IMG/VR virus record: IMGVR_UViG_3300037187_000003
Span: 7,418-71,417 of that record
Direction: 5' to 3' (one strand)
DNA from: a virus
Length of the DNA: 64,000 bases
The position numbers and the translations under genes were made by a program. Below are positions 1,148-62,333 of the stretch, piece by piece. Within the stretch, counting starts at the first letter, position 1, and each line of letters begins with the position of its first letter. The notes beneath the pieces are model-generated. The model was not told the origin of the DNA. It worked only from the letters and a program-made list of their open reading frames with translations, and ran no database searches.

Positions 1148-3151
1148 TTACTGGATCAAGACCGAGCCGAGGGTTATTTGCTGAATCGAACCGCCATCGG
1201 TGTAGAACAAGGTCATCGGCGGCGTCTGCCTGGCAGCACGCACTTGCGCTGTGGCGGGTTGAATCAACAGATAGAAACCCACCGTCGATATGATGCCGTC
1301 CACCGTCATGCCGCACGCCGCATTGACATAAGCGGCCTGCGCAGCCGATAGCGGCACGCCCTGGCGGATCACCCCGTTATTGATTGCTTGTGCCACGGGG
1401 CTTGCGGGCGGGAGCGCAATCGTCGCGGTGTCTGCGCCTCCCGTCAGGGCTTGGCGCAGAATGGCATAACCGGCCGGAGTATAGGGGATCGACTTGAAGA
1501 CCGTCAGAACGCCGCCGAGCAAAGTCAACTGCAACTGGTTGTTGAGCCAGATTTGGTTGATGTAGCTATCGAACCACGCAAAGGGTCCGGTGATCTGACC
1601 GGGATAATAGAACTCGAAATCCTGATTGGCCGTCGCATACGTGCCATAGAAGTTGTAGCCGTTTGCGATAAGGTTCGCCGCTGCCATCGCGTTGGTGACA
1701 CTCGACCCTAGGCCGGATTGGCTCTTGAACGCCGCTGTCGCACGCCCGTTAGTCGCATTGAAATCGACTGATGCAGCGAAGCCGCCGAGGAACGCCGCAA
1801 GGTGCAGGTTCGATCCGGTCGGCTCATAGATGCAGGCGGTGCCGGATGAGTTGCTGGCTTTGAGAATCTGGCCGAGGCTCGTGGCCGCATCCGTGCTTTC
1901 GGTCGGCGTGATGTCGTTATCCCACGCGAGATACGCATAGCGATTATTCTGCGCGTTTGTCCACGCGGCGAAAAGCTGCTTCTGCGCATTGCCGCTCCCG
2001 GCATCGGGATCGAACAGCGTCTGGAAGGTGGCCCAATTCTGCGTCTGCGCGGTTATCGCGCTCATGAATGTGGCCGGGACACCAGCAACCGCGCCTTGCG
2101 ACGTGATTGCGCCAGTGACCAGCGTGAGTGCCAGGCCGGCGCTGATCGTGCCTGAGCCATAGCCGATCGTGCTGGATGCTCCGGTTGTGCTGGAAATGAC
2201 CACGAAGGCGCCGGATACGCTGTCATAGGTGACGACCGGCGTGACGGTGGTCATTGCCTCGCTGGCAACGCCCTGCGTCTGCGTGGCGATGTAGGTTCCT
2301 GCACCGCCCGCGCCGGTGCCCAGGGCGGTGACGTAGGTCCCGGCAGTGACGGACGTGCCTTCGATCTGCTGGCCGATGGCGATGGTCCCGCTGGCCACGG
2401 TTGCCACGTCCACGACGTTGCTCGTGCATGTGATAGATGCGGCGCTTGACGTGGTGGCATTGTTGGTCACATAGACGCCTGCGCCGCCGATGGTGCCGCT
2501 GGTTTGGCTGACGATCCACGTGGTTGCCGGAACGCCGGTGCCGGTGATCGTAGCCGATGCTGCGGTGCCGGGATGGATAGTCCCCGTAACGGACGTAACC
2601 GTGAGATTCGTGCCGCTGCCCGTCGCGGTAAACGTCGCCCCGAAAGCCGCGGCGGTGATCGTGGCATCAGTCGGCCCGGTCAGGCCGAGCGCCGTGGTAA
2701 TCAGTTCCGAGGCGTTGGAAAAGCTGGTAGCCGCGGACAGGTTTATGGCGCTCGATGTGTGAGGCGTGCCGTCGATCGTGACCGTCAGCACGCCGGAAAG
2801 CGCTTGTAGCTGTGCCAGGGTGAGGGAGGATACCGGGCCGCCGCGGAGATAGGCACCGACATTCGCGATCGGATATTGCGCGAAAAGCAGCGCGGCGGGG
2901 AGCGCGGTTGATCCGATAAAGCCGTCGCCGTAAACGGTGGCTTCTACCGCTTCGGTTGAAGTGGCGCCGAAATATGCGCCGACAGTTACGTCGAACGGTG
3001 GCGGGAACGACAACACCCTGCCGATGGGCACGCGCGTGTTCGTCGTCAGCATCAGTTCGATCAGATCAAGCGCCGCACCGCCGGCCGAGAGGACGCTCGG
3101 AATGATATCGACGATGGTCGAGGCCGGAATCGTGTTGATCGTGCCGCTCAT
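1148..3151 (-). CDS. tail sheath protein (DUF3383-like) with inserted beta-rich domains
   Basis: 667 aa. N-terminus IPASTIVDIIPSVLSAGG, C-terminus FYTDGGSIQQITLGS and QTQNWATF motif; Thr/Gly-rich insert. Confidence 0.9.
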   Translation of the reverse strand: MSGTINTIPASTIVDIIPSVLSAGGAALDLIELMLTTNTRVPIGRVLSFPPPFDVTVGAYFGATSTEAVEATVYGDGFIGSTALPAALLFAQYPIANVGAYLRGGPVSSLTLAQLQALSGVLTVTIDGTPHTSSAINLSAATSFSNASELITTALGLTGPTDATITAAAFGATFTATGSGTNLTVTSVTGTIHPGTAASATITGTGVPATTWIVSQTSGTIGGAGVYVTNNATTSSAASITCTSNVVDVATVASGTIAIGQQIEGTSVTAGTYVTALGTGAGGAGTYIATQTQGVASEAMTTVTPVVTYDSVSGAFVVISSTTGASSTIGYGSGTISAGLALTLVTGAITSQGAVAGVPATFMSAITAQTQNWATFQTLFDPDAGSGNAQKQLFAAWTNAQNNRYAYLAWDNDITPTESTDAATSLGQILKASNSSGTACIYEPTGSNLHLAAFLGGFAASVDFNATNGRATAAFKSQSGLGSSVTNAMAAANLIANGYNFYGTYATANQDFEFYYPGQITGPFAWFDSYINQIWLNNQLQLTLLGGVLTVFKSIPYTPAGYAILRQALTGGADTATIALPPASPVAQAINNGVIRQGVPLSAAQAAYVNAACGMTVDGIISTVGFYLLIQPATAQVRAARQTPPMTLFYTDGGSIQQITLGSVLIQ

Positions 3152-3163
3152 GCGTAGTGTCTC

Positions 3164-3886
3164 CTACTCGACCGGCTGTAGAATATCGACCGGGTATGGC
3201 GTGACGCTCAGCGTCCCAGCGAATTGCACGGGCACTTGAACGGTTGGGTTGATCTGCAATTCCAAATCGATGGAATACCTGGTCTCGAATTGCATCTCGG
3301 CATTGTCGAAGGCCAGTTGCCGCGGATCGCTGGTGTAGAGCGGCGCTATGGCTGGGTTTGCGGCGGCGAAGGCATCCACCGCATACTGATCGCGGAACAA
3401 CGTTGAGATGATCTGCGCGTTGTCGCCCGAGGCCGGCCCATGCACATCGAGTTGCACCGTGAACCGCGTCATTTGCAGGTTGCTACTCGTGCCTGCGGCC
3501 ATCGGCCCGCTGGGGATCGTCTGGGCCGGCGCTACGGTGTATGTGCCCGTTCCCCCGGTGCCAGAGCCAAATGCCGTGATGACCGTGCCCACGCCTACGC
3601 TGGGGCCGAAGACGGGGGCGTTTGGCAGGATGGTGCCGGATAGCACCGCGGCGACGGTGAGGGTCGGGCCGGAAATCGAGCCGGTGAAGGTGCAGTCGGT
3701 CGGCGTGTCGATGTTGGTGGCGAGGCGCAGTCGCAGCAGGGGCCACATCTCAATGAAGCTGGCCGCGGCCGGTTCCGGCACTCGGTTATCCTGGCCTCGG
3801 ATGATTTCGATGCCGGGCAGCATTCCTTGCAGGACTGTGGTCAGGGCCGTGAAGACGGCTGATTCGGTGAGGGCGACGGTGGGCAT
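3164..3886 (-). CDS. tail terminator/neck protein with inserted beta domain
   Basis: RGQDNRVPEP, VQLDVHGP and PLYTSDPRQ motifs; immediately upstream of the sheath gene. Confidence 0.7.
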   Translation of the reverse strand: MPTVALTESAVFTALTTVLQGMLPGIEIIRGQDNRVPEPAAASFIEMWPLLRLRLATNIDTPTDCTFTGSISGPTLTVAAVLSGTILPNAPVFGPSVGVGTVITAFGSGTGGTGTYTVAPAQTIPSGPMAAGTSSNLQMTRFTVQLDVHGPASGDNAQIISTLFRDQYAVDAFAAANPAIAPLYTSDPRQLAFDNAEMQFETRYSIDLELQINPTVQVPVQFAGTLSVTPYPVDILQPVE

Positions 3887-4060
3887 TCACGCGGCCTTTT
3901 CGTCCTGCGATGCCGGATGCGGCGCAGTCTCGATCAGTTTGGCGTGGATATCGGCGCGCAACCGCCCCGCAATCGTCGCCCGCGGCTCATCATCGTCCGC
4001 CGCAACGCCTGTCAGCAGCGCGCGGGCGCGGACCAGTAGGTTGCGGATATCCGGGTCCAT
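3887..4060 (-). CDS. hypothetical protein (57 aa)
   Basis: Hand-translated [16 protein letters not shown]...DEKAA; fills the gap between neighbours exactly. Confidence 0.5.
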   Translation of the reverse strand: MDPDIRNLLVRARALLTGVAADDDEPRATIAGRLRADIHAKLIETAPHPASQDEKAA

Positions 4061-4326
4061 CACTCCTCCACAATCGCCGCAGCAACCGCCGCCTTGAACT
4101 CGGCCACCGTCTCGGCAAACTGCGCAACGGTGCGTTCCAGGTCGGACGTGTCCAGTTTGAGTTTCATCGTCGCCTTACCACAGCGCGCCGGTTCCAGTTC
4201 CCGCATCGCGGCCCATACTTCTGCGGCCAGTTCATCCGCTGACCACCCAACCGGGCGGAACGTGGCGAGACGATCAATGACCGCCTGCGCGCCGGCTTGC
4301 AGCATTTCCTCGGTCGGTTCAGTCAC
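4060..4326 (-). CDS. hypothetical protein (PTEEML type)
   Basis: GTG start overlaps the upstream stop; reads [11 protein letters not shown]...VWAAM. Confidence 0.6.
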
Positions 4327-46156: not shown

Positions 46157-46233
46157 GCCTGATTAGCTCAGTTGGATAGAGCGCCGCGCTTCGGACGCGG
46201 AGGGCGCACGTTCGAGTCGTGCATTGGGCACCA
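46157..46233 (+). tRNA. tRNA-Arg(UCG)
   Basis: Full cloverleaf: acceptor GCCTGAT/ATTGGGC; D-arm GCTC/GAGC with A20; anticodon arm CCGCG-CTTCGGA-CGCGG; T-arm GCACG-TTCGAGT-CGTGC; encoded CCA. Confidence 0.93.
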
Positions 46234-48129: not shown

Positions 48130-48205
48130 TGCGGCTGTAGAGGACCGGCACCTCGGGAGTCTCATAAACTCCAAATAGCGGGTTCGATTCCCGCCGCCGC
48201 TACCA
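48130..48205 (+). tRNA. tRNA-Met(CAU), initiator-like but atypical
   Basis: D-stem GAGG/CCTC; anticodon arm GGAGT-CTCATAA-ACTCC; T-arm GCGGG-TTCGATT-CCCGC; ends ACCA. The acceptor stem has a 1:72 mismatch and one bulge. Confidence 0.85.
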
Positions 48206-48207
48206 AT

Positions 48208-48549
48208 CCAGCCACCCCGCCTCACCACGTTGCGGACTGACGAGCCGGACCTTGCGAACCGGCGTGGGAGGGTGGTATTACCGCCTCGCCGTGAGGACGC
48301 TCACAGCCGCCAGTTATCTGCCGGTCCGGACCGGACGCTGGCGATTATCGCGAAAGTCGGGAGCGCGGCACATTGCGCGCCGGGACTACGGTCCCGCCCG
48401 ACGGCGCGGTGTGGCAACCTGGCCGGAGTTTCTGTTTGCAACCCCACGAGTTGGGTGGCATAGTCGCCGGGCTGCGGCGGTAAACTGGCGATGTACGGGA
48501 TGAACCGAAACACGTAGTCCGCGACCAGAGAAGCGACGCGGGTGGCTGG
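48208..48549 (+). ncRNA. candidate large structured ncRNA (about 340 nt)
   Basis: Nested long-range helices 48208-20/48538-49, 48229-38/48516-25 and 48278-85/48476-83. Local GGGAC-UACG-GUCCC hairpin; no convincing ORF. Confidence 0.6.
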
Positions 48550-48698: not shown

Positions 48699-48884
48699 CT
48701 ACCAGCGATGGTAGCCGAAGCCGCCGCCCAGACCTCCGAACAAAACGGCCAATACCAAAATCAGCACCAGCAATCCAACGATGCCGCCCATGCCGTTGTA
48801 GTTGCCCCCCGGCCCGACCCAGCCGGAGCGGTAGCCCCAGCCTCCTCCGCAGAGCAAAAGTATGAGGATTATGAGCAGGAGCAC
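48699..48884 (-). CDS. DUF3309-like small membrane protein
   Basis: LLLIILILLL.GGGWGY...GGIVGLLVLIL. Confidence 0.7.
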   Translation of the reverse strand: MLLLIILILLLCGGGWGYRSGWVGPGGNYNGMGGIVGLLVLILVLAVLFGGLGGGFGYHRW

Positions 48885-49445: not shown

Positions 49446-49691
49446 ATGGAGCCTGTGGAAGTTACCAGGAGACCCCGGCGCAAGTTGGAATATGTCCCCG
49501 ACGATCCGCTTTTGACGGCCGCCGAGACGGCCGCCGAACGCGGCCAAGCAGTCAGTACATTCTGGCGCGATGTGAAGGCAGGACGCCTTCCGCCGGCCTA
49601 TTATGTGTCGCCCCGGTGTCCACGGTGGCGCCGTTCGGAAGTCTTGGCCGGGATAGAGGCGACCCGCGCAGCGCCTGTTGCACAGAGGTAG
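49446..49691 (+). CDS. AlpA/excisionase-like HTH regulator
   Basis: GAGG RBS; LLTAAETA...VSTFWRDVKAGRLPP...RWRRSEV. Confidence 0.8.
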   Translation: MEPVEVTRRPRRKLEYVPDDPLLTAAETAAERGQAVSTFWRDVKAGRLPPAYYVSPRCPRWRRSEVLAGIEATRAAPVAQR

Positions 49692-49693
49692 AA

Positions 49694-50368
49694 ATGGCCC
49701 GCACTCCTAAGCCACTTACCGAAGCCCCCGCCGAGCAGATCACCATCAAACCGCCCAATATCAGGTCTCTTGAGATCGGGATTATCGGGATTGCCCCGCT
49801 GATGATTTGTCGGTTCAGCGCAAAGGCGATGGAACAGATGATGGCTACCCATCAAGCGGGTTCCACGGGCCGCACGAAGAAAGTGCGGGTAGCTCGCGAC
49901 TTCGATGCCGACTTCAACGGAGCGCGACATATCGCTGCCGATGGCTGGGATGGCATCCATGCTGCGGCGTTTCGCAATGGCATGATTTCGGCGTGCCGTC
50001 TGGTCGGCTTCAAGATGACGATCGCCAAACTGTCGGTTTTCGTTGACCCGGATGGTTTCGACGTGGTGGACGGCGTGCCTCTGGTCCGGATCATCAGCGA
50101 CAGCGCTCCGGCGAAGCGCATCATGCACACGCGCAACGCGACCGGCGTCATCGACCTTCGGGCGCGGCCAGCGTGGGATAAATGGTCCTGCAATCTCCGC
50201 ATCAACTATGATGCGGATCAGTTCACGGCGACGGATGTCGTCAATCTGCTTTCCCGCGTCGGCGCACAAGTCGGCGTTGGGGAGGGGCGGCCAGATAGCC
50301 GCTCAAGTGCCGGGATGGGGTTTGGTATGTTCCGGCTGGCTACCGCCGTCGATGAGGCGGCGGCGTGA
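49694..50368 (+). CDS. solo RAMP/Cas7-like RNA-binding protein (Vipr-like)
   Basis: N-terminal strand IGIIGIAPLMI; helix GIHAAAFRNGMISA (compare Cas7/Csm3 IPGSSLKGALR); C-terminal Gly-rich loop GVGEGRPDSRSSAGMGFGMF. The repeat array starts at the next base after its stop codon. Confidence 0.8.
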   Translation: MARTPKPLTEAPAEQITIKPPNIRSLEIGIIGIAPLMICRFSAKAMEQMMATHQAGSTGRTKKVRVARDFDADFNGARHIAADGWDGIHAAAFRNGMISACRLVGFKMTIAKLSVFVDPDGFDVVDGVPLVRIISDSAPAKRIMHTRNATGVIDLRARPAWDKWSCNLRINYDADQFTATDVVNLLSRVGAQVGVGEGRPDSRSSAGMGFGMFRLATAVDEAAA

Positions 50369-50618
50369 GGCAGGCGGCGTGGGGTTATGCGTCGTTCGGC
50401 GCCGCACCGCACGCATCGGCACGGCAGGCAAGCCACGACATCGGAGGGCACCATCTGGCCTGGCTCGGCAGGCGTCGCTTCGATTCGCGTCGCACGTCGC
50501 GGAGGGGCGTGGCAGGCGTGGCTTCGGATCGCGGCGCACGGAACGCCAACGCTCGGCAGGCTGCGCTTGGCAACGGACAGCGTTGCCCGGCGTGGCGTGG
50601 CTCGCTGCGGAATAGCAC
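50369..50618 (+). ncRNA. phased pentamer array: 5 units of GGCA + (SGY-NN)x8-12, putative guide RNAs
   Basis: GGCAGGC at 50369, 50423, 50467, 50511 and 50555 (spacing 54, 44, 44, 44, all 4+5n). Of 46 pentamers, position 1 is G/C in 42, position 2 is G in 39, position 3 is C/T in 38; positions 4-5 vary freely. Confidence 0.85.
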
Positions 50619-50623
50619 CAGGA

Positions 50624-50645
50624 GGCGGGAACCGCCGCGAGGCGG
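50624..50645 (+). other. GC-rich hairpin closing the array
   Basis: CCGCC-GCGA-GGCGG with a GNRA loop (50632-50645); alternative fold GGCGG-GAA-CCGCC. Confidence 0.55.
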
Positions 50646-50685
50646 GCAACGTCCATAAGTCCTTCCAATTTACAAGTTATTAAGA

Positions 50686-51327
50686 ATGCTAACTCAGACC
50701 CAGCGTGAACATCTGGAACTGATCCGCGCCTCCGCTGGCGGCACGCTGGCCCCGCAGGATGTGCTAACCGACGCACGCAATCCGAACTCGCCGCTGCACG
50801 ATCTGTTCCTCTGGAACGACAGCGAGGCGGCGGAAGCATATCGGCTGATCCAGGCACGCGAGGTTGTTCGCGTCGTGGTGCGGATGGCTCCGCGCCCCGC
50901 CCAGGAGACGACGCGGGTTGTGGTGAAGCGCGCCGAGCCACGAGCGTCACGCCCAGCCGTAACTGTGGTACCACGAGATCGAGAGGCGGCGACCTTCAAG
51001 GCGATCAGTGAAGGTATTGATCGTCTTGCAGCGGACCACGAAACTCCGCATTGGCAATTATTATTCGCTGAATTTCGCACATTACTGGCGAAACACACCC
51101 CAGCATCTTTGCTGCCTAGAATCCGCAATCGCAAGGATGGCGCATCCAATTATGCCGAAGGCGAGCCGGAGGCTGCTGATCTGGACCGCATCACGGCTTG
51201 GACAAAAGCAAACGCCCCAGACCTAAGATTCCGCGACTGGGAGGATTTGCGCCGGGTGAATGCACGCCGAGAAATGATGGGTTTCCCATGGTTCAAGCGA
51301 CCTTTGGGAAGGGGCGCAAGAACATAG
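50686..51327 (+). CDS. conserved partner protein of the RAMP/array locus
   Basis: GGTLAPQDVLTDARNPNSPLHDLFLWNDSEAAEAYRLIQAR domain, co-oriented directly after the array. Confidence 0.8.
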   Translation: MLTQTQREHLELIRASAGGTLAPQDVLTDARNPNSPLHDLFLWNDSEAAEAYRLIQAREVVRVVVRMAPRPAQETTRVVVKRAEPRASRPAVTVVPRDREAATFKAISEGIDRLAADHETPHWQLLFAEFRTLLAKHTPASLLPRIRNRKDGASNYAEGEPEAADLDRITAWTKANAPDLRFRDWEDLRRVNARREMMGFPWFKRPLGRGART

Positions 51328-54042: not shown

Positions 54043-56430
54043 TCACGGCACTGGAGCCGCCAACAGCAGCCCACTGCCGGACGAGATCGCCGGGCTGAAC
54101 AGACTCGTCAGACCAACCTCGCCCATAGTGTTATCAGCACCCGAGTTGTTTGGCGATCCGAAGAAATATCCTTGTGGTATTGCCCCGTTCCCATCTCGCA
54201 GGTTTAGCACCGCTAATTCGCTGCAATATGTGCTCACCGACTCCCAGTGGTTCGCAGAGATGGGGCCTATGATCGGTCCCCATGTTTGGTAGTTCGAGCC
54301 ACCAGTCGGATCAAACAGCATCATAACCCAGCCATTCGAGCCAACATACGGCAAGTATACAGTGGTCAAGCATGTGCTTCCGGGCGGGACAAGGGTCGTG
54401 TTGTGGCCTGTGATAAACTGCGATGGATTCCCGATCGCATAAATTGTTGATGGTTTGGTAACAAGCGTCGTCTCGCCGCTCCATGACGCCGCCGAGGATG
54501 GAGTCATACTGGACCGCTGGACGATGCGACTGTTTAATCTATGATAAGTTAGAACCATCGCGCCAGAGGCATTAATCGACAGATAAGGGTCTCCGCTGTT
54601 ATCACTGTTTGCTACCAGATTATTACATACCACCGTCCAACTCGAACTAAGATAGTTTCCAGGTGTTGTGCGCCATATTGAAATAGTTGTATTTGTGAAA
54701 GCCGAAGCAGCGTATTCTAAAGACATGTAAACATAGCCATCAGAATAAAGGCACAAACCACAACATTCGTATCCGTAGTTGGTACCCGTAGGTGCGATTG
54801 TAGAACCAGTGACCTGCGTCCAGGTCAGCCCCTTTCCGGAATATGGGCATGTGAAGAATGTCACCGCCTCTTGTGGCGTGGCATTGCCGATAGTGGATAC
54901 GCCAACGAATTGTGTGCCGTCGTCAATTACCATCATGCCGTTGACTTCGTTAGCAGAAAAACCATCCCAGGGTACCGGTTTTATCAGAGGATTGGCCGGG
55001 CACTGCGTCCAAAATGGCAACGCATTAGCAACTTGATAGGTATAAAGCACTGCGTCGGATGCCGATTGATAGAAGACTACCGCAGTTCCACCCTGTAGCG
55101 CGTAAGGCGACGATGAGTCAGTTGCGGTGAGCGCTACCTGTTGCAATGCAGACCATGTTGCTGAAGAGGTAAGCCACTTGCCGTCCGAAGCGCGGTTAAT
55201 CGAGACTCCAAGTGAGACGGTCGTTGTGCCGGATGCCGTGAAATAGCAAGTATAAACGTCTCCGGTGGTCAGTGTGGTGTTCGATGTGCCGAGAGATGTA
55301 ATTGTCGTGAACGTCGAGCCTAATGCGCTGATCTTTTGTAAATAGACGGAGTATGTTTGGCTGCTACCCCTGGCAATTCCGACATTGTAACCGTTTAATG
55401 ACGCACTACCATTTACCGTCTGCACTCCGCACGCTACATTCATAGCGCTGTTGCTTGGTTGCGTTGTGCTAACGAATGCCATGGAAAAAGTAATGGCTAC
55501 GCTGGAAGCGTTCGTGCCCGGTAACAGCGCCATAGGGTTTGTGGAGTTTGTGCTCGAATTGTAAAGGTATGCTGTGTATTTTGGGTTTCCAGTATTGCCG
55601 CACAAAAAGTTCGAGGTCATCGCTATTATCTCAGGTGGCAATGCCGGAGCCATTGTTGACGCCAAATTCATCGTGTAGGTAGAAGGCGGCGGGGATGTGG
55701 TGGCGGGCTGAAACACAGCTATGACTGCCGCCACATCGCTGGAGCCAGTCCAACTCCATGTGGGGGATATCGTTGAAGGCGACGTGCCAGGTTGAACCAG
55801 ATAAGCTGCACACGACCCGATATTTTTACCTCCTGATAGCGTGGTTTGTCCAAACGCTGTGAAGCTGTCATTTATGGCGAATGTTCCAGTCCCTCCCGTT
55901 CCTAGCGCAAGACCAGCGACAATCAATGACCTTGGGTTTGTCGGCGTAATAGACGGGAAGGTGACTGAGGTCGCCGACGCGGCAATTACGCCGGTCTGCA
56001 CGTCCGCCGCTATGGCTGCGGCCCCGGCCCACGCCTGGACCTGCATATTGCCGTAGATGTTCGATGCTCCGACAATGGTTAGTGTAAAGGTGTGGCTGCT
56101 ACTGGTAGCCGGATTTTGGCAATAATATATCGTCGCCTGAGACGACTGGGACGCGGACTTGACGACTTGCCGTGGTGTCCAAACATTTGCCTGGCTGTCG
56201 GATAGGACGCCTGGCATGTCTGCACCATACTGTGTGCAGAGAATTACAATTAACCCTGCGCCTATCGTATTTGCGCCGGAGGTGGTAAATGTTCCGCCAC
56301 CAGATGGTGAAGAAGCAAACGTGGTTGAAATCGGAGATGATCCGAATCCAGCCTCAGCTTGCTTCGGCATGGCCGCAAGTACAGCGCCGGCAGCAACACT
56401 GGCCATCAGGGATCGGCGGGAGATGTCCAT
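54043..56430 (-). CDS. Tat-signal, Ser/Thr-rich protein with C-terminal beta-propeller glycosidase-like domain
   Basis: MDISRRSLMASVAAGAVLAAMPKQAEA (twin-arginine plus AxA); WTQCPANPLIKP..WD, LTWT and GDP motifs; lower GC. Confidence 0.7.
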   Translation of the reverse strand: MDISRRSLMASVAAGAVLAAMPKQAEAGFGSSPISTTFASSPSGGGTFTTSGANTIGAGLIVILCTQYGADMPGVLSDSQANVWTPRQVVKSASQSSQATIYYCQNPATSSSHTFTLTIVGASNIYGNMQVQAWAGAAAIAADVQTGVIAASATSVTFPSITPTNPRSLIVAGLALGTGGTGTFAINDSFTAFGQTTLSGGKNIGSCAAYLVQPGTSPSTISPTWSWTGSSDVAAVIAVFQPATTSPPPSTYTMNLASTMAPALPPEIIAMTSNFLCGNTGNPKYTAYLYNSSTNSTNPMALLPGTNASSVAITFSMAFVSTTQPSNSAMNVACGVQTVNGSASLNGYNVGIARGSSQTYSVYLQKISALGSTFTTITSLGTSNTTLTTGDVYTCYFTASGTTTVSLGVSINRASDGKWLTSSATWSALQQVALTATDSSSPYALQGGTAVVFYQSASDAVLYTYQVANALPFWTQCPANPLIKPVPWDGFSANEVNGMMVIDDGTQFVGVSTIGNATPQEAVTFFTCPYSGKGLTWTQVTGSTIAPTGTNYGYECCGLCLYSDGYVYMSLEYAASAFTNTTISIWRTTPGNYLSSSWTVVCNNLVANSDNSGDPYLSINASGAMVLTYHRLNSRIVQRSSMTPSSAASWSGETTLVTKPSTIYAIGNPSQFITGHNTTLVPPGSTCLTTVYLPYVGSNGWVMMLFDPTGGSNYQTWGPIIGPISANHWESVSTYCSELAVLNLRDGNGAIPQGYFFGSPNNSGADNTMGEVGLTSLFSPAISSGSGLLLAAPVP

Positions 56431-56437
56431 GTTCGTC

Positions 56438-58333
56438 TCAGTGCGAGAAGTTTGTTGATGGAGAAAGCAGAATATGCGTCGAGTCCTTGACCACGTATGC
56501 CAAGGCGTCGATCGCATTCGCGCCGGTTGACAGCGTGATCGCTGCCGTGCCACCTGGAGCAAGATAACTGTTGCCCCAGATGTTGATCAGATCACTGCCG
56601 GTCGGGGACTGGATTACGTAGATCACGCCGTGCGTTCCAGCAACCGGCGTCGCACTGGGATTTGCCAGCGTGCACGGGCACGACGCATGGACGAGGGTAA
56701 TCGAGTAGTCGTTGTTGGAACCGTCCGGCGTGAAGGTCACAGTCGAGATTGATAACGTGGTAATGCTGGCGGACTGCTGGGCAGACCAGACGTTGGTGCC
56801 GTTCAGCAGCCCGCAGTTGGCGCCTGACGTGCCCACCGGGCAGATTCCGCCAGTTGCTCCTACGTTATCGCCCAGCGCCGTCGTGACGCCCGCCCCCAGG
56901 CTGGTGAGCCCTGTGCCACCGTTTCCTGCACCAAGCGTGCCCGTCACGCCACCATTGCCTGAACTGCCCAATGCAACTGCGGCCATATAGGAACCGCTGA
57001 TGGTTCCGCTGGTGATGATCGAGCCCGGAAGATTTGGTATCACGGAAGTTGCCAATAGACCGCCAGAGCCGAGCACGGGGATCGTGCCGATCGTAGTTCC
57101 GGTTGCCGTCGAGCACCCCGTCGCGCCGTTGGATAGATCACCACACGCGATCGCCTGCGTACCGCCCAGGCTGACGGAGTGCCCGGCCAGGGTCATACTG
57201 CTGTTCGCGAGCGCGGCATTCGGCACAGCCTCGTAGGTCACCGTGCCGCCACCGCTCGCGCTCGTGACTACTGGAACCGTGTTGACGCTCGGGCCAGAAG
57301 GATAGGCCACGCCATCGACCTTGCCCGTCGTGGTGGTGATCGCGGTAGCGCCCGATCCGGTCGTATCGCCCGAGAGGGTGATCGTCTGATTACCGGTCAG
57401 ATAGCTCTGATTGCTCGCCGCGGTGACAAGGCCCTTCGCGTTGACCGTCAGTCCTTGGAACGTGCCGACGTTGGTGTTGACCGTCGCGAGCGTGGTGGCG
57501 AGCGTGCCGGATGTTGTCAGATCGCCAGACAAGTTGCCGCTAGTGATTGATGTTGTGCCGCTGAATACTGCCAGGTTTCCGCTGACTGGACTACCCGTCG
57601 TGGTAACATTTCCGCCACCCGCGCTGCCGTTCGCCGCCGCGGTAATGCGACCCTGCTGGTCAACCGTGATATTCGCTGCGGTGTAGCTGCCCGGCGTGAC
57701 GGTAGTGCTGGCGAGATATGACGCGGCGATCGGCGTGCCCTGCCATACGCCTGTCCCGATCGTGCCCACGCTGGTCAGCGACGATGCGGTCACCCCCGCC
57801 GCCAGCGTCGATCCCGTCAGCGTGCCGGCGGGCGCAGCGCTCAGTGTGGCGAGCGATCCCAGGCCGCCGATCTGCCCCGCCGTGATGCCCGTCAGCGCCG
57901 CTCCAGAGCCGCTGGGCGTCAGGTAATCCGTCCCGGCGGTTGCTGCTGCCAACGCGCCCGCAGAGCCTTTCAGCACGCCACTGGGCGTGACGGATAGGGT
58001 CAATGCGGGCGTGGTGGTGGGGTTGGCGATCGACCACGAAAAGCCGTTGGTATTGACCCCCGAGGCGCTGGTGACCGTGCCTGATCCGCCGCCGAGCGAA
58101 ACCTGCACCGTGCCGTTGTAATACTGCGGAACGTGCGTGCTCTGATTGAGGCTGAGATCACCGAGTTGTGGCGTCGGATAGCCGGTGTTACTGGGCGGCC
58201 CGAGGTTGATCGGGCCGCCCATGACCAACGAGCCGAACGTGACGCCGCCGCAATCGCTCGGCGTGGTCGGGCAGACAGCGCCGGCCTCGCCAGCCAGGAG
58301 GCACAGCAGCGCGGCTATCCAGAAGAGGCGCAT
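56438..58333 (-). CDS. tail-fibre-like protein with N-terminal signal peptide
   Basis: Starts MRLFWIAALLCLLAGEAGA; fibre repeats GTVTS, VTPGSY..ANITVDQQGRITAA, TVNAKGLVTAA, LSGD and NGGTG. Confidence 0.75.
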   Translation of the reverse strand: MRLFWIAALLCLLAGEAGAVCPTTPSDCGGVTFGSLVMGGPINLGPPSNTGYPTPQLGDLSLNQSTHVPQYYNGTVQVSLGGGSGTVTSASGVNTNGFSWSIANPTTTPALTLSVTPSGVLKGSAGALAAATAGTDYLTPSGSGAALTGITAGQIGGLGSLATLSAAPAGTLTGSTLAAGVTASSLTSVGTIGTGVWQGTPIAASYLASTTVTPGSYTAANITVDQQGRITAAANGSAGGGNVTTTGSPVSGNLAVFSGTTSITSGNLSGDLTTSGTLATTLATVNTNVGTFQGLTVNAKGLVTAASNQSYLTGNQTITLSGDTTGSGATAITTTTGKVDGVAYPSGPSVNTVPVVTSASGGGTVTYEAVPNAALANSSMTLAGHSVSLGGTQAIACGDLSNGATGCSTATGTTIGTIPVLGSGGLLATSVIPNLPGSIITSGTISGSYMAAVALGSSGNGGVTGTLGAGNGGTGLTSLGAGVTTALGDNVGATGGICPVGTSGANCGLLNGTNVWSAQQSASITTLSISTVTFTPDGSNNDYSITLVHASCPCTLANPSATPVAGTHGVIYVIQSPTGSDLINIWGNSYLAPGGTAAITLSTGANAIDALAYVVKDSTHILLSPSTNFSH

Positions 58334-58784: not shown

Positions 58785-61700
58785 CTATCCACCATTTGTG
58801 ACTGCGACAACATATCCAGGGCAGCCGTTGCCGCCCGCGCCACCGGCCACCGATCCGGCGCCCCCACCACCGCCAGCGCAGCCATAGGCCCCCGCAGCTC
58901 CTGTGCCACCAGCGCCTCCTGTGCCACCACTGTTGGCGCCGCCGCCTCCCGCGCCGCTCGTGTTCGGATAAAGGCCACCTGAACCTGTGGCGCTGCCACC
59001 AGCCCCCGCTGTGCCTGTTGTGGCGCTGGTTCCCGCTGAGGCCGCCGATGTCCCTATTGCGACCGCGCCTGCGCCGCCGTTGACCACCGAACCAACCAGC
59101 ATGGTGCCGCCAGAGCCAGAACCACTGATGCATGGAGCGGCTTGGCCGTTGCTCGCGGCGGTCAGTGACGAACTGCTGCCAGCCGTGGACTGCGTGCCCT
59201 GAATGTTCCCTGATCCAACGCTACCAGCGCTTCCTATGATTGAGCCGTAGGCTCCGTTCCCAGCGCCCGCCGCCGATGATGTCGCATCGCTGCCGTCAAT
59301 TCCGACACCAGCGCTCGCGCCACCATAACTCTGTGCAGAAGGCTGGCCTGGGTAGCCTCGTCCGCCTGTGTAGGCCGTGTAGTAGCTGCCGAAGGTGGTA
59401 TCATGCCCGACAGCACCCACAGTTCCAGCACCGCTCGTGCCTCCTGCTCCTCCAGTTCCACCAGAGCCAACCGTTACTGAGACCGGCGAACTGAACGTGG
59501 ATGTCAGAGCGGTCACATCCATGCACCCCCCACCGCCGCCGACAGCGCCGCCAGAAACGGCCGCTAACCCGTACGTTCCCTGTCCGCCTCCTGGTCCTCC
59601 CGGACCGCCAGCGATCAAACGAAGCCGCGTCACGCAGGTAATGCCTACTTCACTGCACCAACTAGGCACGGTCCATGTGCCGCTGGTGGTGAAGGTCTGC
59701 ACATCCTGGAAGGGGACGACCACGGGCGGCGCCGCAATACCGAGCGCCGGGTCAACGCCGACGACTGTGTTGCCCGTGGCGACAATCGCCCCGGCCTGCA
59801 CGTTGTTGGTCACGCCATTGTAGTGATGGATGCCATATGCCTGTGTCGCAGTTGCTTGATCGTCGCTGGCATCGAGGCCGTCGATTGTGACATTCTCCTG
59901 CAAGCCGGGCTGTCCGAACGTGCAGCTTCCAGCGAGGTTGATTCCCACCGCGCCAGTCGTTCCGGGGAGGCCGGTTGCCGGCCAATTGTAAGCCTGCCCA
60001 TTATTCTTCATGTGGACCCCAGCGAACGAAATGTCCCGGCCTCCGCAGATGAACACCCCGCCCGATCCGTTCCCGCTGTAGGAGTCTCCGACAAACTTTA
60101 CGCCGATATTGTGATCGCCCTCCCAGCCATTACCAGAGGCGCCTGAGCAGTCTTCTCCGATGAACTCGGGGTTGAAACTATATGAAATCCCCTCGCACGC
60201 AGATGGGGCGAGGTTGTATGCCTGGAATTCTAGGCCATCTTCCTTGAAGATATTGTTCTGGAAAATGAAGCCAGATGTCGCCTCTATAAACAGCGGGCTC
60301 GACCATGTGTGCCGGAACGTGTTGTGGATGAATCGTCCGTCTGTGTTCGCGAACCATGCGCCAAACGCCACCCACACTGCGTAGCCCGACCCTGATCCTT
60401 GTCCCACCGTGAACGGAATGGAGATACCGGTGGCCATCGCTTGCGGTGTGGACACGGTTGCACTGCTCGATATTGTCCAGGGACCGCTGCCACTGACAAT
60501 CGTTGTGCCGCGTGGAATACCCGTTCCAGGGCCGGTCAGAATCTGGCCCGCAACAACCGCACCGCTCGTCACGGTGCCGCTCAACGTGGTGCCGCTGATT
60601 GTGGCTCCGCTCAGAACTGCACCGGCCAGATTGCCTGTCAGCGGCGATGCCAATGTCGCCGCGTATGTCGCCGTGGCCGAGGCTATTGTCGGGCCACTTG
60701 TCACGAGATCAGCAGCCGGAACGCCAGCGGGCGTCCCGCTTACAGCGGTGAGATTACCGGGGATGACACCAATTGCCGAGCAGTTGAATGTAACATTGGT
60801 GTAGCACGAAAACGTCAGTGTGCTGCTGCCGGACGACTGTGGGCCTGACGTGGTTGCTGCGCCAGAGCCAGTCGTAAACAGATTCATTCCGAGATTGTCG
60901 AATCTGTTATTGATGAAGGTCGGCTTCTGGATTCCGGTCTGAGCGGCGATGCCGGTTCCGGAGTTTATCGGGCAGCGCAGAGGTGCGGTTATGTTTATCG
61001 TATAAGGAGCAGTAGACCCGACGATGCTGCTGATCTTTGTTCCTGGCGTCAGACATCCGATGTTGCTTCCGATCTGAAGCACGTCCTGTGCAACCAGATT
61101 GAGAATGCTTGAAGTCTGGAATGACGTGTCACCTCCGACCTGGTTCTGCGTCGTCACGAAAGCTGGTGTGAACCGCACTGTGCCAACTGCCAGCGTATCC
61201 GCAAGCGGCTTCTGAAAGCAGACCACTCCGGTTCCGGAGTTGATTGAAGTCACATAGAGGTCAGGGTCCTCCTCGGTATCGACAAGATAGGCGCCCACCA
61301 CGAGACCAGTCGGAACGCTGGTCAGCGTCATGCAGGATGGTGCCGAGACCATCGTTGTGCTGGCCACCAACTGACTTGCCGATACGGTCCAGCTTGATCC
61401 ACTACCACTGCTGATCGTCGTTCCGGCCGCTACTCCGAGTATGATCGTCTGGGTGGCAGAGATCGTCCCGGAGACGCCACTCACAGAGAGCGCAGTCCCA
61501 GCACCTCCAGAGCCGTTAGAGATGGTGCCTGTGAACGACGCAAGCTGAACCGATGACGCCAGTGTACCCGCAATGAGGCTGCCACCACCAGCCCAGACCG
61601 CCGCGCCACCAGCCGTGTTGATGAACTGATCGTCCACAAATCGCGGCTCGACCATCGGCGGATTGAGCCCGATCAGGCCGTTTTCATTCGACGTGACACC

Positions 61701-62333
61701 AACATTGCCATCAAATATGAGTCCCTGAAACGTGAGGTAATTGTTGCCCGTCGCATTGAACAGCGGGCGGTTGGAGGCGTTGGTGGCGCCAATGCGGATC
61801 GTCGCGGTGCCGTATGCAGCATACAGCGTCAGATCGTTGCAGCCACTCGGTATCGTCGCTGCCTCGTTGAATACATAGAGACCGGCAGGGAAGAACACCG
61901 CCAGCGGCGGCGATGCAGCACAGGCCGTTGTCAGGGCGGCGGCAACGGCAGGCTCGGCGTCAGTGGCGCCTGTTCGGTCGGCATTGACCGCGACGCTACC
62001 ATTAAGCGTGGTTGCGCCGGCAAAATAAGCGTTGCCGCTGCTGTCCAGCGTGGCGGCGCTGGTGCCCGCAAACCCGCCATTGTTGAACTGGATCGCGCCT
62101 GGGTTGCCGCTCGGCCCGGCGGGGAGACCGGATGCGGATAGCGTTTGGTTGGGATACGTGCCACCGAGCGACAGCCCCGCACCGATCGCCACGCCGCCCG
62201 GCTTACAATTCTGCGCGCCGCCCATCAGTGCCGTCGTGGGGAATCCGCGGCTATCGAACGGCCCGCCGCACGTCTGCGCCGCCGCCGCAACCGGGACGAG
62301 CCACAGCAGCAGTGCAACTACGAAACGACCCAC
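58785..62333 (-). CDS. tailspike/fibre-like protein (pectate-lyase-like beta-helix, Gly-rich C-terminus) with signal peptide
   Basis: Starts MGRFVVALLLWLVPVAAAA; D.TGATD..A and VFFPAGLY beta-helix cap; TFTTSGTWTVP followed by a Gly-rich domain. Confidence 0.8.
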   Translation of the reverse strand: MGRFVVALLLWLVPVAAAAQTCGGPFDSRGFPTTALMGGAQNCKPGGVAIGAGLSLGGTYPNQTLSASGLPAGPSGNPGAIQFNNGGFAGTSAATLDSSGNAYFAGATTLNGSVAVNADRTGATDAEPAVAAALTTACAASPPLAVFFPAGLYVFNEAATIPSGCNDLTLYAAYGTATIRIGATNASNRPLFNATGNNYLTFQGLIFDGNVGVTSNENGLIGLNPPMVEPRFVDDQFINTAGGAAVWAGGGSLIAGTLASSVQLASFTGTISNGSGGAGTALSVSGVSGTISATQTIILGVAAGTTISSGSGSSWTVSASQLVASTTMVSAPSCMTLTSVPTGLVVGAYLVDTEEDPDLYVTSINSGTGVVCFQKPLADTLAVGTVRFTPAFVTTQNQVGGDTSFQTSSILNLVAQDVLQIGSNIGCLTPGTKISSIVGSTAPYTINITAPLRCPINSGTGIAAQTGIQKPTFINNRFDNLGMNLFTTGSGAATTSGPQSSGSSTLTFSCYTNVTFNCSAIGVIPGNLTAVSGTPAGVPAADLVTSGPTIASATATYAATLASPLTGNLAGAVLSGATISGTTLSGTVTSGAVVAGQILTGPGTGIPRGTTIVSGSGPWTISSSATVSTPQAMATGISIPFTVGQGSGSGYAVWVAFGAWFANTDGRFIHNTFRHTWSSPLFIEATSGFIFQNNIFKEDGLEFQAYNLAPSACEGISYSFNPEFIGEDCSGASGNGWEGDHNIGVKFVGDSYSGNGSGGVFICGGRDISFAGVHMKNNGQAYNWPATGLPGTTGAVGINLAGSCTFGQPGLQENVTIDGLDASDDQATATQAYGIHHYNGVTNNVQAGAIVATGNTVVGVDPALGIAAPPVVVPFQDVQTFTTSGTWTVPSWCSEVGITCVTRLRLIAGGPGGPGGGQGTYGLAAVSGGAVGGGGGCMDVTALTSTFSSPVSVTVGSGGTGGAGGTSGAGTVGAVGHDTTFGSYYTAYTGGRGYPGQPSAQSYGGASAGVGIDGSDATSSAAGAGNGAYGSIIGSAGSVGSGNIQGTQSTAGSSSSLTAASNGQAAPCISGSGSGGTMLVGSVVNGGAGAVAIGTSAASAGTSATTGTAGAGGSATGSGGLYPNTSGAGGGGANSGGTGGAGGTGAAGAYGCAGGGGGAGSVAGGAGGNGCPGYVVAVTNGG

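What the first reader, a model, noticed from the sequence alone, without database searches (positions are those of the whole stretch)
49446..51327. Phage-encoded RAMP/Cas7-like protein plus pentamer-repeat RNA array: candidate RNA-guided system that is not CRISPR
Seen: a compact plus-strand cassette interrupts a minus-strand late region. It has a promoter, an AlpA-like HTH gene, a 224-aa gene, a 250-nt phased array starting at the base after that gene's stop, a hairpin, and a 213-aa partner gene. Established: RAMP/Cas7 proteins have an N-terminal strand ending in P-L-x-I, a helix like IPGSSLKGALR and a Gly-rich loop before the last strand, and they polymerise on guide RNA with a fixed nucleotide period. 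All three motifs are recognisable here. No cas1/2/3/5/6/8 gene or CRISPR array is in the window. Inference: a solo Cas7-like subunit coats the array RNA, one subunit per pentamer, binding the constant SGY and presenting the variable NN for target pairing. From memory, this architecture matches the recently described VIPR (viral interference programmable repeat) systems; that link is unverified.
Basis: partly seen in the sequence, partly recalled or inferred. Interest (0 to 1): 0.97.

Follow-up and report, generated by a model that had tools for sequence, protein, structure and literature searches.

The report
Phage VIPR RNA-guided silencing system
This peat-soil phage carries a copy of the recently described VIPR system, a small CRISPR-like protein plus five short guide RNAs written in five-letter units, probably used to switch off genes of rival phages; it is real, but its family was already published in 2026.

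Summary

The 250 nt after its stop codon is the strongest 5-nt-periodic stretch of the window (z 7.3, next 3.3). It parses into five units of 54/44/44/44/54+ nt, joined by GGC-A-GGC one-base slips. This fits the "staggered" vrRNA arrays named in the VIPR preprint.

In 39 relatives' loci, 30 have strict YNNGG runs on the gene's strand and 35 have the same partner gene.

This array is unusually loose: GGY in only 16 of 44 units.

Read by the published 1-nt-skip rule, two guides hit the capsid start and a tail-fibre gene of one rival phage lineage. Two others hit a VapE-type primase-helicase gene. There is no self-hit.

VIPR was published in three 2026 preprints, and this scan already noted it in at least 410 genomes. 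Verdict: a new member of a known kind. Function here is inferred, not shown.

The parts
49446..49691 (+). Small HTH or excisionase-like gene (81 aa). Its stop lies 2 nt before the vipr start. It is not part of the conserved module.
   Evidence: phrog_66 'excisionase and transcriptional regulator', E 9.8e-6. Pfam HTH_17 E 0.14, below cut-off. tblastn found it next to the Vipr homologue in 0 of 39 relatives' loci. Stop/start spacing read.
49694..50368 (+). vipr: 224-aa stand-alone RAMP (Cas7-like) protein
50372..50425 (+). vrRNA unit U1: AGGC junction plus 10 pentamers (54 nt)
   Evidence: Parse. The junction GGCAGGC at 50369 abuts the vipr stop codon. No convincing target was found.
50426..50469 (+). 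vrRNA unit U2: AGGC plus 8 pentamers (44 nt)
   Evidence: Parse. By the 1-nt-skip rule it matches 16/16 across the probable start codon of a major-capsid gene (PF05065, phrog_10) in 12 G+C-rich IMG/VR contigs.
50470..50513 (+). vrRNA unit U3: AGGC plus 8 pentamers (44 nt)
   Evidence: Parse. Exact in 4 GpA-type terminase genes. Also 15/16 and 14/16, antisense and in frame, inside VapE-type genes of L062 and L046. The only variant seen in other metagenomes, 50493 C>T, lies at the Y position.
50514..50557 (+). vrRNA unit U4: AGGC plus 8 pentamers (44 nt)
   Evidence: Parse. Exact 16/16, in frame, on the VFIGTTNS motif of 7 VapE-like primase-helicase ORFs among 25 exact IMG/VR hits.
50558..50611 (+). 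vrRNA unit U5: AGGC plus at least 10 pentamers
   Evidence: Parse. The first 10 NN pairs match 20/20, antisense and wobble-aligned, in a tail-fibre-like gene in 14 IMG/VR contigs, with a 15th at 1 mismatch. A shuffled 10-pair control gave 0 hits.
50612..50685 (+). 3' end of the array region: degenerate pentamers, a small hairpin (50624-50636) and an A+T-rich spacer before vap
   Evidence: Sequence. Fold not better than shuffles (z -0.72). No terminator-like site here. No Rfam family, ribozymes included.
50686..51327 (+). vap-like accessory gene (213 aa). The N-terminal domain (about 1-66) is conserved; the C-terminal half is divergent.
   Evidence: tblastn found its N-domain beside the Vipr homologue in 35 of 39 loci. 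Alignment A2 shows the motif LH..FxWDD..AA..YRL.QAR. phrog_15946, E 4.4e-13. No Pfam family in any of 32 members. AF2 N-domain pLDDT 89-98; whole model 70.9, pTM 0.40.

Best explanation
This is a VIPR (Viral Interference Programmable Repeat) locus on a roughly 71-kb tailed-phage contig from peat metagenomes.

It has three parts:
- vipr (49694..50368), which encodes a minimal Cas7-like RAMP.
- An array of five guide RNAs (vrRNAs) in the 317-nt gap after vipr.
- vap (50686..51327), the conserved accessory protein.

The guides are made of NN-SGY pentamers. They are joined by GGC-A-GGC one-base phase slips, which makes this a 'staggered' array.

By homology with the SUSP1 system, the likely mechanism is as follows. 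The array is transcribed with vipr and cut into units. Vipr protomers polymerise on each unit, one per pentamer. They bury the constant triplet and display the NN dinucleotides. The filament binds double-stranded DNA that matches NNxNNx..., skipping one base per repeat, and blocks transcription.

Read this way, the guides are aimed at rival phages and not at this phage. U2 covers the start codon of a major-capsid gene and U5 a tail-fibre gene of the same G+C-rich phage lineage. U4, and probably U3, cover conserved motifs of a VapE-type primase-helicase gene.

Shown here: fold, family membership, array anatomy, conserved gene pair and matching sites.

Inferred: RNA processing, filament formation, DNA binding, silencing, and that the matched phages meet this phage in one host.
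For: Protein:
- RAMP fold: Foldseek gave 45 PDB matches at E<=0.001, the top ones Csm3.
- Family profiles hit 'SUSP1 Vipr protein' 36pp_D at E 4.7e-5 and 7.2e-7, and no other chain below E 0.3.
- In that alignment, SUSP1 RNA-contact residues named have counterparts here: R138 = R158, D177 = E197, R179 = R199, M72 = M97. All four are invariant or nearly so in the family.

Array:
- It is the top period-5 signal of the window and of the contig.
- Five GGCAGGC junctions are spaced 54, 44, 44 and 44 nt apart.
- NN positions are 52% A+T against 38% for the window.
- The legend of fig. S18 of the preprint describes staggered arrays with 1-nt overlaps.

Relatives:
- 30 of 39 loci have at least 4 tandem YNNGG on the gene's strand (961 units). 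On the other strand it is 1 of 39 loci (5 units).
- The vap N-domain lies beside vipr in 35 of 39 loci.
- Cyanophage Cy-LDV1 shows the same vipr-array-vap-array layout.

Context:
- The contig is held as a virus record.
- It has terminase, portal, major head, tail sheath and primase genes by PHROGs.

Targets:
- No site of >=80% NN match in the phage's own contig.
- U5 matches 20/20 in 14 contigs, against 0 hits for its shuffle.
- U2 and U5 both match exactly on one 39.8-kb viral record, G001. 0 of 1500 shuffles of U2 come within 1 mismatch there.
- U4 is exact and U3 15/16 in the same VapE ORF. 1 of 1500 shuffles does as well.
- The phage has no homologue of these target genes.

Persistence and RNA:
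- The same cassette, 7 differences in 1936 nt, occurs in three other peat or permafrost runs of three studies.
- One metatranscriptome contig (50186-50443) runs from vipr across its stop into the array.
Against: - The preprint's own search criterion (at least 4 tandem YNNGG) is not met in this array. The longest strict run is 3, and GGY occurs in only 16 of 44 units. One unit (U2) has GCC, GAC, CGG and CAT as 'constant' triplets.
- SUSP1 W178, which stacks on the second G, is Gly198 here. It is Gly throughout this family.
- The significant sequence match to SUSP1 Vipr covers only 47 residues, from thumb to G-loop. The N-terminal part aligns collinearly but without significance.
- No promoter was found by the scan.
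- The RNA-library contig may be DNA carry-over, as the tool's note warns.
- Target evidence is weaker than it looks for single guides. A 16-base pattern gives 11-33 exact IMG/VR hits, and shuffled U2 still gives 11.
- U2 also matches 11 RegA translational-repressor genes in contigs of 46-52% G+C.
- U3 has two candidate targets and U1 has none.
- G001 has no U3 or U4 site.
- Nothing shows that the matched phages share a host with this one.
- A similar 'guides aimed at conserved motifs' claim elsewhere in this scan partly failed a later check (note e1-5709135).
Confidence: 0.85

Rival explanations
1. A decaying VIPR remnant. The genes are intact, but the array has drifted away from GGY so far that Vipr no longer assembles on it. 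The locus would be a fossil carried by the phage.
For: GGY in 16 of 44 units here, against 0.49-0.88 in six relatives' arrays parsed the same way. The strict YNNGG x4 criterion fails. The Vap C-terminal half departs from the family and lacks its FVSL..DR..GGYR block.
Against: - All five GGC-A-GGC junctions and the exact 44-nt spacing are intact.
- Drift that ruined the constant triplets should also have ruined the NN positions. Yet U2, U4 and U5 keep 16/16, 16/16 and 20/20 matches to phage genes, and pairs of guides converge on one record or one gene.
- The middle G is kept in 37 of 44 units.
- Vipr keeps every family-invariant residue.
- The one array variant seen in other samples is C>T at the pyrimidine position.
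Confidence: 0.08
2. A working VIPR whose real job is not inter-phage conflict. It might time the phage's own genes or silence host genes, and the database matches to other phages would be coincidental.
For: - The cassette is translationally coupled to an excisionase or regulator-like HTH gene.
- In Cy-LDV1 the homologous module lies between a cI-like repressor and an excisionase.
- The host genome is unknown, so host targets could not be searched.
Against: - No site of >=80% NN match in the phage's own 71.4-kb contig.
- Two independent convergences on foreign phage genes, each rare among 1500 shuffles.
- 0 of 401 sampled genomes of the class of a Roseococcus relative hold the U5 pattern within 1 mismatch.
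- The published systems target satellites and prophages.
Confidence: 0.05
3. Not a guide array at all. The tract would be G+C-rich sequence with chance periodicity or a hidden coding region, next to a RAMP-fold protein with another role.
For: - Several ORFs of 77-190 aa are open across the tract.
- Fourier power at period 5 over the whole tract is low, 0.17.
Against: - The low Fourier power follows from the four one-base phase slips. Lag-5 identity is 0.45-0.46 and is the window's extreme.
- Period 5 is incompatible with coding, and lag-3 identity is ordinary at 0.31.
- 30 of 39 relatives have arrays at the same place on the same strand only.
Confidence: 0.02

Closest known systems
Type II VIPR of Escherichia phage SUSP1 (Vipr, vap1, four vrRNAs; PDB 36pp). 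Sources: bioRxiv 10.64898/2026.04.26.720920, .720927 and 10.64898/2026.10.15.759431.
   Same: - Phage-borne two-gene module of a minimal RAMP plus an accessory gene, with pentamer-coded guides beside it.
- Profile-level homology of the proteins.
- RNA-contact Arg, acidic residue, Arg and Met are kept.
- Candidate targets are wobble-aligned sites in genes of rival elements, and there is no self-target.
   Different: - Protein identity is too low for pairwise detection (E 0.094).
- Trp178 is replaced by Gly.
- Guides here have 8-10 repeats, against 9-16 or 10-12 in SUSP1.
- Guides are joined head to tail by a one-base slip. No conserved pseudoknot tail is evident and no structure beyond shuffles was found.
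- The constant triplet is loose SGY, not GGY.
- The Vap here has no detectable family name, and its relation to vap1 could not be tested.
[quoted passage not shown]
   Same: The legend says individual vrRNAs derive from 1-nt overlapping positions, so that the end of one marks the start of the next. Units here are 5n+4 nt long (54, 44, 44, 44) with a GGC-A-GGC junction. The same junction occurs in relatives L003, L008, L010, L035 and in Cy-LDV1.
   Different: The figure and the type assignment (I-VII) are not visible to me. Identity of the architectures is therefore inferred from the legend. The preprint states that staggered arrays, unlike the ribozyme and single-guide forms, were not among those confirmed by sRNA-seq.
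Csm3 / Cmr4 / Cas7-11 (Cas7-family RAMPs of type III, III-E and VII CRISPR-Cas)
   Different: - 8-15% identity.
- No cas genes found among the three cassette proteins and no CRISPR array in the window.
- The guide period is 5 nt with three bases hidden, not 6 nt with one base flipped (as stated in the preprint).
- The target is double-stranded DNA bound without cleavage in the studied VIPR.
Cyanophage Cy-LDV1 (BK059895.1) genes g34-g33, annotated hypothetical
   Same: The Vipr homologue is 58.9% identical. The order is the same: vipr, staggered GGC-NN array, vap homologue. A second array and an excisionase follow.
   Different: Its array is much cleaner GGC-NN, with strict YNNGG runs of 4-8 units. 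It lies next to a cI-like repressor in a temperate phage.

Membership tests
VIPR | Vipr protein is a minimal RAMP: RRM core, glycine-rich loop, thumb | tested here: met
VIPR | Sequence homology to an experimentally studied Vipr | tested here: met
   Profiles A1 and A3 hit 36pp_D 'SUSP1 Vipr protein' at E 4.7e-5 and 7.2e-7. The significant stretch is 47 residues (154-200). The single sequence gives only E 0.094.
VIPR | Residues that hold GGY in SUSP1 Vipr (H17, R138, D177, W178, R179, M72) | tested here: inconclusive
   By the HMM alignments, R138 = R158, D177 = E197, R179 = R199 and M72 = M97 are kept. W178 = G198 is not kept. The H17 counterpart lies in the non-significant part of the alignment.
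VIPR | At least 4 tandem YNNGG units beside vipr (the preprint's search criterion) | tested here: not met
   The only strict run in the window lies elsewhere, on the minus strand at 48808-48827. The longest run in the array is 3 units. This is a search heuristic of the authors, who also accept NNNGG, YNNNG and NNNNG arrays.
VIPR | Pentamer array with constant and variable positions, 'GGY/NN or a related consensus', on the gene's strand | tested here: met
   Period-5 z 7.27, the window's maximum. Per-position information is 0.18 and 0.24 bits at NN, against 0.68, 1.15 and 0.67 bits at the triplet. G at the middle position in 37 of 44 units. 30 of 39 relatives have strict arrays on the gene's strand.
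VIPR | Adjacent vap accessory gene | tested here: met
   The Vap N-domain lies beside the Vipr homologue in 35 of 39 loci. Which of vap1-6 it is cannot be told, because the figures and tables were not available to me.
VIPR | No cas genes or CRISPR array; viral genome | tested here: met
   TRF found no array in 64 kb. No PADLOC or NCBIfam hit for the three cassette proteins; other ORFs of the contig were not scanned with these libraries. The contig is a virus record with terminase, portal, head and sheath genes.
VIPR | Guides match foreign DNA by the 1-nt-skip rule, wobble-aligned, without self-targets | tested here: met
   No self site at >=80% NN match. U5 20/20 and U2 16/16 lie on one viral record. 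U4 16/16 and U3 15/16 lie in one VapE ORF, all in frame. Other skip rules were not compared.
VIPR | vrRNAs are expressed, processed and co-purify with Vipr; the complex silences matching DNA | not testable with these tools
   The only hint is one metatranscriptome contig covering 50186-50443. It is kept as contigs and DNA carry-over is not excluded.
CRISPR-Cas (Cas7 of class 1) | Cas7-type RAMP encoded with other cas genes and a CRISPR repeat-spacer array | tested here: not met
   The fold is shared. There is no repeat-spacer array in the window, the neighbours are an HTH gene and vap, and there is no PADLOC hit.

The most novel reading that the evidence does not exclude
The Vipr of this locus works on guides in which only the middle G of the 'constant' triplet is dependable (GGY in 16 of 44 units). 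Register would then be set by the GGC-A-GGC junctions and by protomer-protomer contacts, not by each repeat.

The five guides would also be organised as pairs. Each pair would pin one rival at two essential genes or motifs: capsid start plus tail fibre of one phage lineage, and two motifs of a VapE primase-helicase of another element.

That would make this a natural example of relaxed guide grammar and of redundant two-site targeting in VIPR.
Probability: 0.3. Interest if true: 0.5.

Novelty: new member of a known kind. Interest (0 to 1): 0.3.

Why it matters
The locus adds little to the concept. VIPR, its 1-nt-skip code, wobble-aligned targeting, staggered arrays and variant consensus repeats are all in the 2026 preprints, and this scan has already met the family in at least 410 genomes.

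It is useful as a worked environmental example:
- It is a soil or peat phage far from the E. coli and Pseudomonas models.
- Its array is compact at five guides, and four of them have concrete candidate targets: a capsid start codon, a tail fibre and a VapE-type helicase.
- Its constant triplets are unusually degenerate. If the array is active, this bounds how much of GGY Vipr really needs, which matters to anyone reprogramming these guides.
- The same cassette persists nearly unchanged in four peat or permafrost data sets, so the phage and its rivals could be followed in the field.

Tried and rejected
- Close relatives' DNA. Single-protein scans of viral and metagenome contigs returned only 42-58% relatives. 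This question stays open.
- VIPR type (I-VII) and vap class. The text names no criteria that I could apply, and figures and supplements are not held. No assignment was made.
- U1 target. 16 exact hits for its last 8 pairs, with no cluster larger than 3 and no extension into the first two pairs. Nothing within 80% NN match on G001 or on the VapE loci.
- U3 on terminase versus VapE. This remains unresolved.
- U4 on G001. No site within 3 mismatches.
- Host or prophage targets. The U5 pattern was not found within 2 mismatches in the two genomes behind L003 and L010. It was not found within 1 mismatch in the 401 genomes searched of one class. These are samples, not proof of absence.
- Rfam found no family in the array. 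The local TRF scan missed the array and the whole-window scan listed only two short rows elsewhere; TRF cannot see units this variable.
The 1-nt rule is taken from the preprint.
- Parts of the cassette without cover in the RNA run X14 are not evidence of silence.
Full report
**What is there**

On the plus strand lie an 81-aa gene (49446..49691), a 224-aa gene (49694..50368), a 317-nt gap, and a 213-aa gene (50686..51327). The first gene's stop is 2 nt before the second gene's ATG. The gap begins with GGCAGGC directly after the TGA.

Base identity at lags 5, 10 and 15 is 0.446, 0.420 and 0.432. At other lags it is 0.23-0.33. In 250-nt sliding windows this is the strongest period-5 signal of the window (z 7.27, next 3.27). 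It is also the strongest in the whole 71,417-nt contig (z 6.93, next 3.76). Fourier power at period 5 is low because the phase slips by one base four times.

Split at those slips, the tract reads AGGC plus 10 pentamers (54 nt), then three times AGGC plus 8 pentamers (44 nt each), then AGGC plus at least 10 pentamers.

Within the 44 pentamers, positions 1-2 carry 0.18 and 0.24 bits. Positions 3-5 carry 0.68, 1.15 and 0.67 bits. The triplet is GGY in 16 units, SGY in 27, and has a middle G in 37.

Its hairpin (50624-50636) is real but unremarkable.

**The protein**

Pfam, NCBIfam and PADLOC give nothing. PHROGs gives an unnamed family (phrog_4652).

The family is large. It has 4442 relatives at E<=1e-3 in the 90% clusters and 2247 clusters at 50% identity.

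By sequence, the single protein's best PDB hit is 'SUSP1 Vipr protein' (36pp_D) at E 0.094. A 38-sequence profile brings this to 4.7e-5 and an 80-sequence profile to 7.2e-7. No competitor scores below E 0.3.

The significant stretch runs from the thumb to the G-loop. Three of the base-contacting residues described for SUSP1 have invariant counterparts there: R138 = R158, D177 = E197, R179 = R199. Helix-1 M72 aligns with M97. W178 is Gly198 throughout this family.

**The literature**

A full-text search found three preprints.

Of 10.64898/2026.04.26.720920 I read the outline, all Results, and methods sections 18, 20, 26 and 27. I also read passages found by term, including supplementary figure legends.

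Of 10.64898/2026.04.26.720927 I read the outline and sections 5-6. Of 10.64898/2026.10.15.759431 I read the outline and passages. Figures and supplementary tables were not available.

These preprints establish several points:
- The Vipr plus vap plus vrRNA module.
- GGY/NN repeats, or NNNGG, YNNNG and NNNNG variants.
- One protomer per repeat.
- The 1-nt-skip DNA code and transcriptional silencing.
- Wobble-aligned targets in rival elements.
- Seven types, and 'staggered arrays' whose vrRNAs overlap by 1 nt.

The 5n+4 unit lengths here fit that last description.

**Relatives**

I obtained 39 loci with Vipr homologues of 42-61% identity.

30 of the 39 have at least one run of 4 or more YNNGG on the gene's strand, 961 units in all. 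On the other strand it is 1 of 39 loci with 5 units. The nine without strict runs include loci with other constant triplets (AGC-NN in L035, GTC-type in L028) and some short or degenerate ones.

The N-terminal domain of the 213-aa protein is encoded beside vipr in 35 of 39 loci. The HTH gene is there in 0 of 39. The conserved module is therefore vipr plus vap plus array, and the HTH gene is local.

Cyanophage Cy-LDV1 has vipr (58.9% identity), a staggered GGC-NN array, vap, a second array and an excisionase.

The Vap here keeps the family's N-domain. Its C-terminal half is shared only with one other protein. Its fold gave no significant match.

**Context and persistence**

The contig is held as a virus record. 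It encodes terminase (phrog_38), portal, major head (phrog_264), tail sheath, primase, helicase and a RecT-like protein.

The cassette recurs with 7 differences in 1936 nt in three further peat or permafrost runs from three studies. The only array difference, 50493 C>T, is at the pyrimidine position.

One metatranscriptome contig spans 50186-50443, from vipr into the array. This is a weak hint of co-transcription, because DNA carry-over is not excluded.

**Targets**

I scanned IMG/VR for exact matches.

U4 (8 pairs):
- 25 hits, 7 of them in frame on VFIGTTNS..TGNRR of primase-helicase ORFs.
- All 5 that I tested carry PF05272 (VapE-like domain).

U3:
- 18 hits, 4 of them in GpA-type terminases, of which 2 were tested.
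- It also matches 15/16 and 14/16, antisense and in frame, inside the VapE ORFs of L062 and L046, 113-115 codons upstream of the U4 site.
- 1 of 1500 order-shuffles does as well on those seven loci.

U5:
- Its first 8 pairs give 32 hits. 15 are in contigs of 62-68% G+C, antisense and in frame in a gene of about 290 codons (PF21722; tail-fibre PHROGs).
- The match extends to 20/20 in 14 of them.
- A shuffled 10-pair pattern has 0 hits.

U2:
- 33 hits. 12 lie across the probable start codon of a major-capsid gene, with GGAG 11 nt upstream (PF05065, phrog_10).
- Another 11 are in RegA genes of lower-G+C (46-52%) contigs, probably by chance.
- Shuffled U2 gives 11 hits, none in contigs of G+C 0.60 or more.

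U2 and U5 both lie on one record, G001 (39.8 kb, G+C 0.654), at about 30.8 kb and 5.9 kb. 0 of 1500 U2 shuffles come within one mismatch there.

The phage's own contig has no site at >=80% NN match. It has no homologue of the target genes.

U1 has no convincing target. Single 16-base hits mean little at this database size. The weight lies in the two convergences, the U5 extension and the reading-frame alignment.

**Verdict**

It is a new member of a published family and not a new kind of system.

Its distinctive points are the degenerate constant triplet, the compact five-guide array between vipr and vap, and concrete candidate targets in rival phages. Activity, processing and targeting remain inferred.

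This scan had already reported VIPR loci on other DNA: 554 notes in at least 410 genomes.

Noticed in passing
window 46157-46233, 48131-48201, 48356-48402: tRNA-Arg(TCG) and tRNA-Met(CAT) lie on the plus strand just upstream of the cassette. There is a sub-threshold Rfam match to DUF3800-VI RNA at 48356-48402 (26.2 bits against a gathering score of 35, E 0.027).
   Followed up: no
L035:4300-4400; L028:3700-4000: Two relatives' arrays use other constant triplets with the same 5-nt period: AGC-NN with GCAGGC junctions in L035, and GTC/TCNNG-type units in L028.
   Followed up: partly
L177 (BK059895.1, Cyanophage Cy-LDV1) 2501-4106: Genes g34 and g33, annotated hypothetical, are a Vipr (58.9% identity) and a Vap homologue. 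Staggered GGC-NN arrays follow each, and the module lies between a cI-like repressor and an excisionase.
   Followed up: partly
phage records H2-H25: 27 Mycobacterium-phage and 5 Gordonia-phage records encode 33%-identical homologues of the Vipr-like protein. All those listed are annotated hypothetical. Their flanks were not examined for arrays.
   Followed up: no
L116, L118, L119, L123, L125, L128, L133, L134, L137, L145, L146: The U2 pattern also matches exactly inside RegA-type translational-repressor genes (PF01818, phrog_242; one tested) of 11 viral contigs of 46-52% G+C. This is probably a chance hit multiplied by an abundant lineage.
   Followed up: partly
window 50686-51327: The Vap here keeps the family's N-domain but lacks the family's central FVSL..DR..GGYR block. 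It carries a C-terminal extension shared only with P0272 (52% identity over 48% of the query).
   Followed up: partly
window 54046-56562 and 58788-62333 (minus strand): Two very large ORFs (839 and 1182 aa) downstream of the cassette have no PHROG family at E<=1e-5.
   Followed up: no
window 48699-48884 (minus strand): A 61-aa Gly-rich, hydrophobic ORF holds the only strict YNNGG x4 run of the window, on the minus strand at 48808-48827. The run looks like a by-product of Gly codons, not a guide.
   Followed up: no
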